Counted from the stretch's first letter, positions 2,380 through 6,822 are shown. The stretch: DNA of 13,789 bases from a virus (IMGVR_UViG_2568526722_000003:1-13789), one strand, 5' to 3'. Numbers and translations are program-made. The notes: generated by a model from the letters alone, not told the origin.

Positions 2380-2391
2380 AGGTCGCCGCCC
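2380..2391 (-). other. cos: cos site: 12-nt lambda cohesive end GGGCGGCGACCT (cosN core), with cosB/Nu1 leader on one side and lambda right-end sequence on the other
   Basis: Minus strand reads ...CCGGCGATCCGACAGGTTACG|GGGCGGCGACCT|CGCGGGTTTTTGCTATTTATGAAAATTTTCCGGTTTAAGG..., matching the joined lambda right and left ends as recalled; lies about 180 nt upstream of the Nu1 start. Confidence 0.85.
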
Positions 2392-2590: not shown

Positions 2591-2824
2591 ATGTCAACGA
2601 AGAACAGAACCCGCAGAACAACAACCCGCAACATCCGCTTTCCTAACCAAATGATTGAACAAATTAACATCGCTCTTGATCAAAAAGGGTCTGGGAACTT
2701 CTCAGCCTGGGTCATTGAAGCCTGCCGCCGAAGACTGTGCTCAGAAAAAAGAGTTTCGCCTGAAGCAAACAAAGAAAAGAGTGACATTACTGAATTGCTC
2801 AGAAAGCAGGTCAGACCAGATTGA
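2591..2824 (+). CDS. Small ribbon-helix-helix-like DNA-binding protein (77 aa), possibly YlcI/DUF3950-like
   Basis: ATG ORF; basic N-terminal tail (KNRTRRTTTR), then predicted beta-strand NIRFP and two helices (NQMIEQINIALDQ / FSAWVIEACRRRL), typical RHH topology; AT-rich; the family name is from memory and unverified. Confidence 0.55.
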   Translation: MSTKNRTRRTTTRNIRFPNQMIEQINIALDQKGSGNFSAWVIEACRRRLCSEKRVSPEANKEKSDITELLRKQVRPD

Positions 2825-2881
2825 AGCAATTTAGATAATCGTGCAGACTAGGTACCCTCATATCACATGGAAGGTACTACA

Positions 2882-3292
2882 ATGGCTCAGGTTGCCATTT
2901 TTAAACAAATATTCGATAAAGTGCGAAATAATTTAAACTATCACTGGTTTTATTCTGAACTAAAACGTCACAATGTCTCACATTACATTTACTATTTAGC
3001 CACAGAGAATATTCATCTTGTTCTTGAAAACGATAATACGGTTTTAATAAAAGGACAGGGTAAGGTTGTAAATGTAAGATTTTCAAAAAATAAATGCCTT
3101 ATAGAAGCCACATTAAAAGGATTCAAATCAGGAGAGTTATCATTTTACGAATACAGGAAAAATCTTGCTACAGCAGGGGTTTTCAGATGGATTACAAATA
3201 TCCACGAAAACAAAAGGTATTACTATACCTTTGATAATTCATTACTCTTTACTGAGAACATTCAGAACACTACACAAATATTTCCGCACTAA
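2882..3292 (+). CDS. AT-rich hypothetical protein (~137 aa), possibly DUF1398/YbcV-like moron
   Basis: Uninterrupted ORF; ATG at 2882 has a GGAAGG Shine-Dalgarno 7 nt upstream (the track start at 2867 has none); strongly AT-rich codon usage unlike the flanking phage genes; the family assignment is a recollection. Confidence 0.55.
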
Positions 3293-3502: not shown

Positions 3503-3970
3503 AAGGGATATCAGTTAAGTTATCCCGTGTAGGGTATAAGCCATTATCAAAGCCACTCTGTAGGGAATGGCTTTTGTGATGGCATCACTTACTCTTTACG
3601 CTGCTATCCCACTCATCCCGGAATTTTGATGGGTTATTGAAACCTTCTGCTGACATAACAACTCCTTCAATGTTTGGCTGAAATTAGGATGTCTTTCCAT
3701 CAGTCCGCCACCACAAAGAATCTTTTTTGCCATAAGGCAGGAGGTTCATCTTTCAGTGGCTGCCGGTGTTATTTCCCCACTTACTGGCTTGGGTTGTTTC
3801 GTGGTACTGCCGTTAACTGGTGGCGCACAGATTTAGTTAAATCCGTTCTCGCCTGAACTATCTTTTACATACCCGGATTGTGGGGATGTAAATCACGGTT
3901 TCATTATCAAGCCCACCAGTAGATGGGCTTTGTAATGAAGAGTTGTTATGAAAATTGCTCTAAACAAGCA

Positions 3971-4459
3971 TTAATAGCCATCAGAAGTAATCGCTACAGA
4001 TTTCAATCCCTCAATGTCATCCTTGGACAGGGCGAACCATTCACCGTGCTTTCTCTTTGCGGCAAATTTGCGATGAAGCATGTTTTCAGTTTCTCTTCCA
4101 CCAGGGATCAGGCACTCAAGCTTCAAGCAGTCTGGTCCAGAGTTGCCAAGCGATTTGATGCGTTGTGGAATGTTGGATGAATACCCAATTTTGGTTAGCC
4201 CAGTTTTCTTCGATGACAAAACGTATACCTGAGGAGGTTCTTTTCTCTGGTCTTCCATTACACGTCTCATTGTTGCCATAAGTCCGCCGTGCATCAGCAT
4301 TTCAACAAAGAACGCTGACCGAACACCTGACGACTTAAGCATGCCAGAAAATTCACTTGCCAATTCCATTAACTCTGCGATGTTTTCAGGAACTTTTTGG
4401 CAGTTATCTTCCTTGTATAAGGAAATCATTCTTTGAAGCTTTTCTTCTAATTGGTTCAT
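3971..4459 (-). CDS. T5orf172 / GIY-YIG-like domain protein (~162 aa) with an unrecognised N-terminal region
   Basis: C-terminal half (VYVLSSKKTGLTKIGYSSNIPQRIKSLGNSGPDCLKLECLIPGGRETENMLHRKFAAKRKHGEWFALSKDDIEGL) fits the T5orf172/MUG113 pattern (YVYxL...KIG.T.N..RR...L...E..LH..F...R..GEWF); the track start at 4495 is GTG, the first ATG is at 4457-4459 (MNQLEEK...). Confidence 0.6.
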   Translation of the reverse strand: MNQLEEKLQRMISLYKEDNCQKVPENIAELMELASEFSGMLKSSGVRSAFFVEMLMHGGLMATMRRVMEDQRKEPPQVYVLSSKKTGLTKIGYSSNIPQRIKSLGNSGPDCLKLECLIPGGRETENMLHRKFAAKRKHGEWFALSKDDIEGLKSVAITSDGY

Positions 4460-4608
4460 AGCGTCTTTACCTTTTAGAAAGTGAGCCTGTCTCACAGAAA
4501 AGCCGCCCCGAGATGGTCGCCACCATATACGGCAGTTCTCAGGCTCAACTTTCTGAAAGGCTCGGGTGATGTAATATGCGCGTGAGATGCGCTGTGAAAT
4601 TCAGATGT

Positions 4609-4632
4609 AAAAAAAGCCCCGCATCGCGAGGC
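4609..4632 (-). terminator. Rho-independent terminator downstream of Rz/Rz1
   Basis: Minus strand GCCTCGCGATGCGGGGC (7-bp GC-rich stem with one G-U pair, 3-nt loop) followed by TTTTTTT, about 30 nt after the Rz stop. Confidence 0.6.
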
Positions 4633-4664
4633 TCATTAAATGGACTTTGTGATTTGCAAAAAAA

Positions 4665-5123
4665 TTATTTCAGGCATTGCGTCCTGATGTATTCCTGCAG
4701 GTAGTTAACCTGCGCGGTTATCTTGTCGATTCCACTTCGGAGACGGTAATAATTGAGTTCAGCATCTGCTGTAAGTCCTGGGCTTTCTCCATCGCCCATG
4801 CCGCTGGCTCCGGTCGTTGACTTTGCACAGGTGGCGGCGACTTGCAGGCGCTTACGCCCAGCAGAAACATCAGCACGGAGACTTTCGATAGTCGCGTTAG
4901 CATCAGCAAGCTCCTTTGTGTATCTTGCGTCGAGTTCTGCTACATCACGTTGACGCTTCCGCATGTCAGCGATGGTGGCGTTCGCCTTCTCCAGTTCACT
5001 GGCCTTGTTATCGCGCTGCTCTTTGTAGGCGATTGCGTTATCACGGTAATGATTAACAGCCCATGACAGGCAGACGATGATGCAGATACCCGGCACTACC
5101 TGCTGAGGTGCCATAGGCGACAC
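4665..5123 (-). CDS. Rz: Spanin inner-membrane subunit Rz (i-spanin), N-terminus chimeric
   Basis: From [19 protein letters not shown]...KELADA... onward resembles lambda Rz as recalled; the first ~12 codons (from a GTG start) are encoded within the holin stub in another frame. Confidence 0.7.
4718..4903 (-). CDS. Rz1: Spanin outer-membrane lipoprotein Rz1 (o-spanin), embedded in Rz in the +1 frame
   Basis: [36 protein letters not shown]...: signal peptide with lipobox (LGVSAC) followed by a proline-rich region, wholly inside Rz as in lambda Rz/Rz1; ATG at 4901-4903. Confidence 0.7.
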
Positions 5124-5724: not shown

Positions 5725-6822
5725 ATGAAAAAATTAACAGTGGCAATTTCTGCTGTAGCTGCATCAGTACTGATGGCGATGTCTGCTCAGGCAGCTGAAA
5801 TTTATAATAAAGACAGTAACAAGCTGGATCTGTACGGGAAAGTTAATGCTAAGCACTACTTCTCCTCTAATGATGCAGATGATGGTGATACTACTTATGC
5901 CCGTCTTGGCTTCAAAGGTGAAACCCAAATCAACGATCAACTGACTGGTTTCGGTCAGTGGGAATATGAATTCAAAGGCAACCGCGCTGAATCTCAAGGT
6001 TCCTCCAAAGATAAAACCCGTCTTGCCTTCGCTGGCCTGAAATTCGGTGACTACGGCTCCATCGATTACGGCCGTAACTACGGTGTAGCATACGACATCG
6101 GTGCGTGGACTGACGTTCTGCCAGAATTCGGTGGCGATACCTGGACCCAAACAGATGTGTTCATGACTGGTCGCACCACTGGTGTTGCAACCTATCGTAA
6201 CAACGACTTCTTTGGTCTGGTTGATGGTCTGAACTTTGCTGCTCAGTACCAAGGCAAAAACGATCGTAGCGATTTCGATAACTACACCGAAGGTAACGGT
6301 GATGGCTTCGGTTTCTCTGCTACCTATGAATACGAAGGATTCGGTATCGGTGCAACTTATGCGAAATCTGATCGTACCGACACTCAAGTTAATGCAGGGA
6401 AAGTTCTTCCTGAAGTATTTGCTTCCGGTAAAAATGCAGAAGTTTGGGCCGCAGGTCTGAAATATGACGCTAACAACATTTACCTGGCCACTACCTATTC
6501 TGAAACCCAGAATATGACTGTATTTGCTGATCACTTCGTTGCTAATAAAGCTCAAAACTTCGAAGCTGTTGCACAATATCAGTTCGATTTCGGTCTGCGT
6601 CCGTCCGTTGCTTACCTGCAATCTAAAGGTAAGGATCTTGGAGTATGGGGCGATCAGGACTTAGTCAAATATGTTGATGTAGGTGCAACCTATTACTTCA
6701 ACAAAAATATGTCTACTTTCGTTGATTACAAAATCAACCTGCTTGACAAAAATGACTTCACTAAAGCACTCGGTGTAAGCACTGATGACATCGTTGCTGT
6801 AGGTCTGGTTTACCAGTTCTAA
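5725..6822 (+). CDS. nmpC: OmpC-family outer-membrane porin (NmpC / phage Lc type), 365 aa, intact
   Basis: Signal peptide [23 protein letters not shown]|AEIYNKD, porin motifs and C-terminal ...VAVGLVYQF; full-length and uninterrupted; opposite orientation to Q and the lysis genes, as for DLP12 nmpC and PA-2 lc. Confidence 0.9.

What the first reader, a model, noticed from the sequence alone, without database searches (positions are those of the whole stretch)
3971..4660. Standalone T5orf172/GIY-YIG-like gene between the spanin terminator and cos
A ~162-aa protein with a C-terminal T5orf172 (MUG113, GIY-YIG-like) domain and an unrecognised ~80-aa N-terminal region occupies the slot where lambda carries bor. 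It follows a clean terminator after Rz/Rz1 and has its own upstream region. T5orf172 domains recur in mobile elements and anti-phage loci but their function is largely uncharacterised. This is the strongest candidate here for undescribed accessory or defence biology.
Basis: partly seen in the sequence, partly recalled or inferred. Interest (0 to 1): 0.6.

Follow-up and report, generated by a model that had tools for sequence, protein, structure and literature searches.

The report
Phage nuclease gene behind RNA gate
A small, already-catalogued phage nuclease-type gene of unknown role sits between the lysis and packaging genes of a defective lambda-like prophage. The more notable feature is the conserved RNA hairpin in front of it, which hides its ribosome-binding site and also precedes several unrelated DNA-targeting genes in about one sixth of E. 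coli genomes.

Summary
Window 3971-4459 (minus strand) encodes a 162-aa protein with a C-terminal T5orf172/MUG113 domain. A model of that domain has GIY-YIG nucleases as its top matches among solved structures. The N-terminal 75 residues form an acidic three-helix bundle with no informative match. The gene follows the Rz terminator (4614-4634) and lies upstream of cos (2380-2391).

It is not undescribed. RefSeq names it 'GIY-YIG nuclease family protein', it belongs to PHROG 4284 (unknown function), and phage HK106 gp64 is 99% identical. Primers in a published paper show that HK106 gp64 was replaced exactly, start to stop, and the phage stayed viable.

The slot is better described as the rha slot of phi80 and P22 than as lambda's bor slot. 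The 'own upstream region' is not a promoter. It is a ~95-nt hairpin that pairs the Shine-Dalgarno sequence with an upstream CCUUUC. Covariation is strong: 27 of 34 pairs show changes on both sides. The same leader precedes Rha, KilA-N, T5orf172 and HNH-AP2 genes in 929 of 5,426 E. coli genomes, and Rfam has no match.

Most likely this is a dispensable nuclease made in small amounts late in lytic growth, probably acting in conflicts between mobile elements. A defence role in the lysogen is unsupported.

The parts
3971..4459 (-). CDS for a 162-aa protein. Residues 1-75 form an acidic (pI 5.4) three-helix bundle. Residues 76-162 form a basic (pI 9.4) T5orf172/MUG113 domain with a GIY-YIG fold.
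4469..4561 (-). Long unbranched leader hairpin. Its base pairs CCUUUC with the Shine-Dalgarno region (AAGG at 4473-4470). The covariance-model match spans 4454-4566.
   Evidence: MFE -51.9 kcal/mol, z -2.9. Fourteen divergent leaders each fold the same way on their own. Covariance model R1. 93% of cells paired, 27 of 34 pairs with changes on both sides, slid controls 42-51%.
4578..4592 (-). Small hairpin GCGC-AUCUCAC-GCGC between the terminator and the long hairpin.
   Evidence: Read from the sequence. Stems of different sequence occupy the same place in eps34, L010, L051 and L007. Not tested statistically.
4614..4634 (-). Intrinsic terminator after Rz/Rz1. It is also the left boundary of the exchangeable cassette.
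   Evidence: Terminator scan. Annotated as a terminator in HK106, eps34 and phi80. Homology with ev099, which carries a KilA-N cargo, resumes at 4610.
3909..3930 (-). Hairpin AAGCCCAUCUACUGGUGGGCUU downstream of the stop codon. It is the right boundary of the cassette.
   Evidence: Sequence. Window 3902-3937 is the only stretch shared with ev099 on this side of the cargo.
4665..5123 (-). Rz (i-spanin) reading frame with Rz1 embedded at 4718-4909. The 5' end is altered by a deletion that removed the endolysin and holin genes.
   Evidence: ORFs. Annotation of the identical locus in E. coli 214-4. Deletion junction at 5083-5088.
2380..2391 (-). cos cohesive-end sequence (GGGCGGCGACCT on the minus strand).
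   Evidence: Exact match.

Best explanation
The gene is one of several interchangeable cargo genes of the 'rha slot' of lambdoid phages, which runs Rz, terminator, structured leader, cargo, packaging genes.

Shown:
- It encodes a two-domain protein whose C-terminal half is a T5orf172-type GIY-YIG fold. The residues that would form the active site (Y79, R100, E125, plus K90, H129 and E140) are invariant across the family.
- No consensus promoter was found upstream of it.
- Its Shine-Dalgarno sequence is buried in an evolutionarily conserved ~95-nt hairpin.
- The 99%-identical HK106 gene can be replaced without loss of viability, and a gene put in its place behind the same leader is functional during lytic growth.

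Inferred:
- Transcription comes from Q-antiterminated late transcripts that read through the Rz terminator.
- The hairpin keeps translation low, as with the RBS-masking hairpins of T4 and Aeh1 homing endonuclease genes.
- The product is an active, potentially self-toxic DNA endonuclease made in small amounts late in infection.
- The acidic N-terminal bundle mediates oligomerisation or partner recognition rather than sequence-specific DNA binding.
- The target is DNA of competing elements (co-resident or co-infecting phages, or satellites), not a step of the phage's own cycle.
For: Identity and fold.

Slot and cassette boundaries: the same or a 33%-identical gene lies after Rz plus terminator in HK106, eps34, g341c, and Klebsiella and other prophages. 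Flanks are conserved (86-96% identity) around highly divergent alleles.

Leader: it folds alike in 14 lineages. Covariation is 27 of 34 pairs, with 0 of 500 shuffles reaching the observed values. It also precedes Rha, KilA-N and HNH_3+AP2 genes.

No sigma-70 consensus promoter was found between the terminator and the ATG.

Precedents: T5orf172 nucleases act as homing-type or anti-satellite nucleases (PMC10448857; PMC8263062). A related GIY-YIG nuclease domain is toxic when untethered (PMC13190303). RBS-sequestering hairpins regulate T-even homing endonuclease genes (PMC2988022).

Dispensability and expression of the slot: HK106 gp64 was replaced by atiEcA (PMC11364771). The primers were mapped to the exact ORF borders.

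Selection: 67 nt differences but only 23 aa differences against L052.
Against: No nuclease activity, target or phenotype is known for this protein.

The second Tyr of the GIY-YIG motif is Lys, and canonical PF01541 scores only E 0.18. The mapping of E125 to the catalytic Glu of I-TevI rests on position in the fold, because the profile alignment failed.

Most cargoes behind the same leader are non-nuclease DNA-binding proteins (Rha, KilA-N), so the leader does not by itself imply a nuclease.

How the hairpin is opened is unknown.

Q-dependent read-through is inferred from lambdoid biology and from phi80 data in PMC11364771. It was not measured for this gene.

The prophage in the window is defective, lacking holin, endolysin, large terminase and head genes, so a late programme may never run here.
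Confidence: 0.5

Rival explanations
1. It is a classical free-standing homing endonuclease gene. The protein would cut a specific site in lambdoid genomes that lack it, at or near the Rz-cos slot, and spread by recombinational repair.
For: T5orf172 genes are abundant putative homing endonuclease genes, most often found next to terminase genes (PMC10448857). The gene has a patchy distribution: 82 of 5,426 E. coli genomes, all at 99% identity or more. It occurs on lambda-like, HK97-like and P22-like backbones at one fixed site with sharp boundaries. The same leader precedes HNH_3+AP2 genes, an architecture described for homing endonucleases. The RBS-masking hairpin resembles those of T4 and Aeh1 homing endonuclease genes.
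Against: No recognisable sequence-specific DNA-binding module is present. The N-terminal half is an acidic three-helix bundle, whereas 87% of surveyed T5orf172 homing endonucleases carry Zn-finger domains. The slot is more often filled by Rha or KilA-N genes, so cassette exchange is explained by ordinary recombination between the conserved flanks. Alleles only 33-50% identical sit in near-identical flanks, which suggests long residence rather than recent invasion.
Confidence: 0.2
2. It is a prophage-encoded anti-phage defence or superinfection-exclusion nuclease that is expressed in the lysogen.
For: The region upstream of the packaging module is a documented hotspot for immunity genes, such as phi80 taiEcA. 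T5orf172-type GIY-YIG domains act in defence in SNIPE/PD-lambda-1. There is a weak PADLOC PDC-S57 match at E 7e-6. The gene is intact in a degraded prophage.
Against: The gene runs with the late operon directly behind a strong terminator. It has no consensus promoter and its ribosome-binding site is sequestered. This contrasts with taiEcA and bor, which are on the opposite strand and are expressed in the lysogen. The protein has neither the transmembrane segment nor the DUF4041 domain of SNIPE. The PADLOC match covers only the nuclease domain.
Confidence: 0.12
3. It is a catalytically silent DNA-binding regulator, comparable to the domesticated T5orf172 repressor CapR, and functionally interchangeable with Rha and KilA-N cargo.
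For: The alternative cargoes of the same slot are DNA-binding proteins. T5orf172 relatives have been domesticated as repressors. One 90%-identity cluster representative has E140G.
Against: Y79, R100, E125, H129 and E140 are invariant or nearly so across clusters down to ~25% identity. That pattern is expected for an active site rather than for a DNA-binding surface alone.
Confidence: 0.13
4. It is a decaying passenger gene with no function.
For: It is dispensable in HK106. Nonsense alleles (E25*) occur in 2 of 45 loci.
Against: The full length is conserved across E. coli, Salmonella, Klebsiella and metagenomes. Synonymous changes far outnumber non-synonymous ones. Both domains are conserved.
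Confidence: 0.05

Closest known systems
HK106 gp64 (YP_007151734), Chlobot CDS0088 and RefSeq WP_016245257.1 'GIY-YIG nuclease family protein'; PHROG 4284
   Same: These are 99-100% identical proteins in the same slot behind the same leader.
   Different: Nothing differs. This is the same gene. Its function is unknown in all records.
phi80 rha / P22 orf201 slot (the Rha phenotype: inhibitory to phage growth in IHF-deficient hosts)
   Same: The position is the same (Rz, terminator, leader, cargo, packaging genes), the leader RNA is homologous, and the cargo ATG is the same conserved one.
   Different: The cargo protein is unrelated: a Rha winged-helix protein rather than T5orf172. The IHF link is known to me only from a secondary citation (PMC4936722) and from the phi80 record's note. 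The original paper could not be read.
T5orf172 nucleases of vibriophage ICP1 (putative homing endonucleases; Odn/Gp88)
   Same: They share the Pfam domain and a conserved Arg and Glu. They are phage-encoded and are often near terminase genes.
   Different: The ICP1 proteins carry Zn-finger (CapR, DUF723, DUF4397) or RepA_N DNA-binding domains. This protein has an acidic three-helix bundle instead.
SNIPE / PD-lambda-1
   Same: It has a C-terminal GIY-YIG-type nuclease domain that is toxic if unrestrained.
   Different: SNIPE has a transmembrane anchor and DUF4041 and acts in the uninfected cell at DNA entry. Neither feature is present here.
RBS-sequestering hairpins of T-even homing endonuclease genes (I-TevI, segB, mobE)
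   Same: A stable hairpin masks the Shine-Dalgarno sequence of a nuclease gene embedded in a long polycistronic transcript.
   Different: In T4 a late promoter inside the hairpin relieves the block. No conserved internal promoter is seen here. This leader is far longer, is homologous across many phages, and serves several unrelated cargo genes.
lambda bor
   Same: It lies in the same intergenic neighbourhood between Rz and cos.
   Different: bor is on the opposite strand, encodes a lipoprotein, is expressed in the lysogen and has no leader match.

Membership tests
Pfam T5orf172 (PF10544) / MUG113 (PF13455) | Profile HMM score above the curated gathering threshold | tested here: met
   MUG113 scores 55.7 bits against a cut-off of 22.3. 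T5orf172 scores 40.8 bits against a cut-off of 20.
GIY-YIG nuclease superfamily | Beta-beta-alpha-beta-alpha core fold | tested here: met
GIY-YIG nuclease superfamily | Canonical GIY...YIG tyrosines | tested here: not met
   The first Tyr is present (V-Y79-V). The second motif reads K90-I-G, with Lys in place of Tyr. PF01541 reaches only E 0.18. By my own recollection, this K-I-G variant is the usual form of the motif in T5orf172 proteins.
GIY-YIG nuclease superfamily | Conserved catalytic Arg and Glu | tested here: inconclusive
   R100 and E125 are invariant in 18 sequences down to ~25% identity and lie where the fold predicts. Residue-by-residue alignment to I-TevI failed.
GIY-YIG nuclease superfamily | Metal-dependent DNA cleavage | not testable with these tools
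   This needs biochemistry.
Free-standing homing endonuclease gene | Nuclease domain fused to a sequence-specific DNA-binding module | tested here: not met
   No Pfam or NCBIfam hit falls in residues 1-75. The model shows an acidic three-helix bundle with only generic helical matches.
Free-standing homing endonuclease gene | Presence/absence polymorphism at one site between otherwise homologous genomes | tested here: inconclusive
   The site is fixed with sharp boundaries, but it is filled by alternative genes rather than left empty.
Free-standing homing endonuclease gene | Cleavage of the allele lacking the gene, followed by gene conversion | not testable with these tools
   This needs in vitro cleavage assays and mixed infections.
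SNIPE / PD-lambda-1 | Transmembrane anchor plus DUF4041 upstream of the nuclease | tested here: not met
   Pfam finds no DUF4041. The N-terminal helices are acidic and soluble-like.
PADLOC candidate PDC-S57 | Full-length match to the system's protein model | tested here: not met
   E 7e-6, covering profile positions 3-83 of 212, which is the nuclease domain only.
rha-slot cassette of lambdoid phages | Position after the Rz terminator and before the packaging genes, behind the conserved leader RNA | tested here: met
Rha family (PF09669) | Rha DNA-binding domain | tested here: not met
   Pfam gives no such hit. There is no similarity to a Rha cargo protein.

The most novel reading that the evidence does not exclude
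The ~110-nt leader would be an undescribed class of cis-regulatory RNA, absent from Rfam, that gates translation of a family of interchangeable and potentially self-toxic DNA-targeting genes (Rha, KilA-N, T5orf172, HNH-AP2) in the late operons of lambdoid and P22-like phages. It may work as a two-state switch, through an alternative pairing of a repeated GAGCC segment or through a coupled upstream reading frame, or as a processing site. It could be the element behind the old observation that rha becomes harmful to the phage in IHF-deficient hosts. The T5orf172 cargo would be a nuclease used against rival phages or satellites.
Probability: 0.25. Interest if true: 0.65.

Novelty: new member of a known kind. 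Interest (0 to 1): 0.42.

Why it matters
The gene adds little by itself. It is a small member of a large, poorly characterised phage nuclease family, it is already in the databases, and it is dispensable in the laboratory.

What matters is the context. The Rz-to-packaging slot of lambdoid phages holds interchangeable DNA-targeting genes behind one conserved, strongly covarying RNA hairpin that masks the ribosome-binding site. That leader occurs in about 17% of complete E. coli genomes, including Stx phages and laboratory phi80 derivatives. It gives a concrete, testable handle on how phages keep dangerous accessory genes quiet, and possibly on the unexplained Rha/IHF phenotype. It is also a ready-made expression slot, as the published HK106 replacement shows.

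Tried and rejected
- Sequence search of the PDB with the family profile gave nothing meaningful.
- NCBIfam gave no hit.
- Two Rfam scans of the leader region found only sub-threshold noise.
- RNAalifold on a plain MAFFT alignment mis-registered the arms and picked the alternative helix. I replaced it with a covariance-model alignment.
- The promoter scan found no site upstream of the gene. A weak TTCACA-16-TATTAC candidate read by eye is not conserved in eps34 or HK106, so I rejected it.
- An IHF consensus scan of the leader DNA gave one 1-mismatch site overlapping the ATG. It is not conserved, so I rejected it.
- Upstream reading frames ending at AGGTAA or ATGA exist in most leaders, but their start codons are not conserved, so this stays inconclusive.
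- No similarity was found between this protein and the KilA-N or Rha cargo proteins.
- Henthorn & Friedman 1995 could not be read.

Full report
**1. The observation**

- The minus strand carries an ORF at 3971-4459 (ATG, 162 aa). A GTG-extended form reaches 4495.
- Pfam gives MUG113 (E 7.4e-15) and T5orf172 (E 3.3e-10), both above threshold. Canonical GIY-YIG PF01541 reaches only E 0.18.
- NCBIfam has no model for it. PHROGs places the whole protein in phrog_4284, function unknown (E 9e-88).
- An intrinsic terminator at 4634-4614 follows Rz (4665-5123) with Rz1 embedded in it.
- The cos cohesive-end sequence is at 2380-2391.
- The described feature is therefore present at the stated coordinates.

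**2. What the window is**

- It is a lambdoid prophage read on the minus strand. The identical 1 kb occurs in about 80 complete E. coli genomes, where RefSeq annotates 'GIY-YIG nuclease family protein' (WP_016245257.1) next to 'lysis protein'.
- Compared with E. coli 214-4, the window has two deletions. One removes most of the endolysin and holin genes (junction 5083-5088). The other removes everything from within nohD to gpFI (junction 2042-2046). The prophage is defective.

**3. The protein**

- Close relatives are few and all ~160-165 aa, so it is not a fragment. An exhaustive profile search found about 14 further 50%-identity clusters that share both halves, and about 38,000 proteins that share only the T5orf172 domain.
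- AlphaFold (pLDDT 87) gives three helices (3-20, 23-43, 49-71), then b77-83, b89-94, a97-105, b112-119, a122-131, b136-138, a146-155.
- The N-terminal half is acidic (pI 5.4) and has no Cys/His cluster. The C-terminal half is basic (pI 9.4).
- Across 18 family members down to ~25% identity, the invariant residues are Y79, K90-I91-G92, R100, E125, L128, H129 and E140-W141-F142.
- By position in the fold, Y79 corresponds to the GIY Tyr, K-I-G to YIG, R100 to the catalytic Arg, and E125 (first helix after strand 3, motif E-T-E-N) to the catalytic Glu. This mapping is inference, because a profile alignment to I-TevI failed.
- Close alleles are nearly identical. An allele with 86% amino-acid identity differs at 67 nt but only 23 aa, which points to purifying selection. 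Two loci carry E25*.

**4. The slot**

- The same gene is HK106 gp64 (99.4% identical) and is present in phage Chlobot. A 33%-identical homologue is eps34 gp68 / g341c gp64. In each annotated case it follows Rz and a rho-independent terminator and precedes the packaging genes.
- Homologues at 50% and 76% identity, the latter from Klebsiella, occupy the same place. One 35%-identical relative lies among tail genes.
- Pairwise DNA comparison defines a cassette. Against phage ev099, which carries an unrelated KilA-N gene in the same orientation, homology stops at the Rz terminator (4610) and at a downstream hairpin (3902-3937).
- Against eps34, the leader (4455-4633, 86% identity) and a downstream block (3688-3822, 96%) are conserved, while the coding sequences share only 33% of residues.
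- Lambda carries bor here, but on the opposite strand.

**5. The upstream region is a structured RNA, not a promoter**

- No sigma-70 consensus site lies between the terminator and the ATG.
- The transcript folds into a long unbranched hairpin (MFE -51.9 kcal/mol, z -2.9). Its base pairs CCUUUC with the CUAAAAGG that contains the Shine-Dalgarno sequence.
- Fourteen leaders from divergent alleles fold into the same shape independently.
- A covariance model built from seven close sequences finds every family member, including the most divergent (38-61 bits).
- On the resulting alignment of 29 distinct sequences, 93% of cells are paired against 42-51% when partners are slid. In 27 of 34 pairs both sides change. 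The covariation score is 0.44 against 0.105 or less. None of 500 shuffles reaches the observed values. The alignment was fitted to the model, which favours the structure, but the number of pairs changed on both sides is large.
- Rfam has no match.

**6. The leader is shared by unrelated cargo**

- The model also hits upstream of the ev099 KilA-N gene (47.9 bits). It hits upstream of HNH_3+AP2 genes that lie between Q and the holin gene in two viral contigs.
- BLAST of the leader finds 153 phage records (73 Stx2a phages, P22-like phages, HK620, phi80, and Klebsiella and Enterobacter phages) and 1,056 places in 929 of 5,426 E. coli genomes.
- The gene at the leader's ATG is usually 'Rha family transcriptional regulator', sometimes GIY-YIG or KilA-N. 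The T5orf172 coding sequence itself is in 82 genomes.
- In phi80 the order is Rz, terminator, leader, rha (note in the record: 'DNA synthesis inhibition in IHF- hosts'), taiEcA (opposite strand), atiEcA.
- The slot is thus the rha slot. Homology between cassettes ends a few bases after a shared ATGAA.

**7. Experimental evidence in the literature**

- He et al. 2024 (PMC11364771) show that the region upstream of the packaging module is a hotspot for immunity genes. They show that phi80 late genes, including atiEcA, depend on Q.
- Their primers end exactly at the gp64 ATG and begin exactly after its stop codon. Both junction sequences are also exact matches in the window, at 4457-4483 and 3945-3970.
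- The gp64-less phage formed plaques, and the inserted gene was functional. The T5orf172 gene is therefore dispensable under laboratory conditions, and the leader permits some translation during lytic growth.

**8. Mechanism**

- Most likely the gene is transcribed only by Q-modified polymerase reading through the Rz terminator, is translated at a low level because of the hairpin, and encodes a DNA endonuclease that would be harmful if over-produced.
- Three precedents support this. T5orf172 proteins of ICP1 are putative homing endonucleases, and Odn is an anti-satellite nuclease that depends on a conserved Glu. The SNIPE nuclease domain is toxic when untethered. T4 and Aeh1 homing endonuclease genes are held down by RBS-masking hairpins.
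- A strict homing endonuclease is less likely, because no sequence-specific DNA-binding module is present and the slot is usually filled by non-nucleases.
- Defence in the lysogen is unlikely given the orientation, the terminator, the missing promoter and the masked RBS.
- How the hairpin is opened is unknown. An alternative pairing of a repeated GAGCC segment has some support (86.5% of cells paired, 4 of 6 pairs with changes on both sides). Upstream reading frames that end at AGGTAA or ATGA are frequent but have no conserved start. RNase III processing of the ~25-bp stem is my own suggestion and is untested.

**9. Verdict**

- The gene is real and correctly described, but it is already catalogued and is so far phenotypically silent. 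It is a new member of a known kind.
- The conserved leader RNA and the modular rha slot are the more interesting result.

Noticed in passing
window 4454-4566 (minus); also L005 1770-1882, L029 438-545, L040 405-514, L091 2001-2108: A conserved leader hairpin of about 110 nt masks the Shine-Dalgarno sequence. It shows strong covariation and has no Rfam match. It is shared by Rha, KilA-N, T5orf172 and HNH_3+AP2 genes, and occurs in 929 of 5,426 E. coli genomes and 153 phage records.
   Followed up: yes
window 4558-4563 (GAGCCU) and 4535-4542 (UGAGCCUG) against 4482-4489 (CAGGCUCA), minus strand: Two repeated 5' segments can each pair with the same 3' segment. The alternative helix is 86.5% paired, with 4 of 6 pairs showing changes on both sides (L007 has GAACC/GGUUC). 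This may be a two-state switch that frees the ribosome-binding site.
   Followed up: partly
window 4466-4525 (minus); other leaders in alignment A9: Most leaders contain a short upstream reading frame of 13-29 codons. It starts in the upper hairpin and stops either at the UAA of AGGUAA or at the UGA of the conserved AUGA start. The start codons are not conserved, so translational coupling is neither shown nor excluded.
   Followed up: partly
window 4578-4592 (minus): A small hairpin GCGC-AUCUCAC-GCGC lies between the Rz terminator and the long hairpin. Stems of different sequence occupy the same place in eps34, Klebsiella and other leaders.
   Followed up: no
window 5083-5088 and 2042-2046: There are two deletions relative to the intact prophage of E. 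coli 214-4. Most of the endolysin (rrrD) and holin (essD) genes are missing, as is everything from within nohD through terminase, portal and capsid genes to gpFI. The prophage is defective, and the Rz reading frame has a foreign 5' end.
   Followed up: partly
L029 540-1052 and L040 507-998: HNH_3+AP2 endonuclease genes, an architecture seen in homing endonucleases, sit between Q and the holin gene. They lie behind a second copy of the same leader in phages that also carry the T5orf172 gene.
   Followed up: partly
L010 4001-5187 (Klebsiella variicola prophage): The 76%-identical homologue has a GTG start. Its stop overlaps the start of a 232-aa DNA/RNA non-specific endonuclease gene (PF01223), which suggests a two-nuclease operon in that lineage.
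   Followed up: no
L091 2068-2622 (phi80 rha, JX871397): The annotated rha start lies 35 nt upstream of the conserved ATG, inside the leader hairpin. The conserved ATG is the one used in the deletion primer of PMC11364771, so the database start is probably too long. The 174-aa and 224-aa gene calls for the T5orf172 protein (P0003, P0001) look over-extended in the same way.
   Followed up: partly
L046 (and one more locus); P0002: A nonsense allele E25* of the T5orf172 gene occurs in two viral contigs. The representative of a 114-member protein cluster carries E140G and D110Y.
   Followed up: no
window 2591-3292 (plus strand): Two genes on the opposite strand lie between the T5orf172 gene and cos: YlcI/YnfO family (2591-2824) and DUF1398 (2867-3292). 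They are conserved in lambda, ev099 and Chlobot. phi80 carries the immunity gene taiEcA in the corresponding neighbourhood.
   Followed up: no
window 5725-6822 (plus strand): An intact porin gene (nmpC-like, 365 aa) lies between the Q antiterminator region and the lysis-gene remnant, on the strand opposite to the late operon.
   Followed up: no
window 3923-4180 (plus strand): An 85-aa ORF runs antisense to the T5orf172 gene. It has no support from homology and is probably spurious.
   Followed up: no
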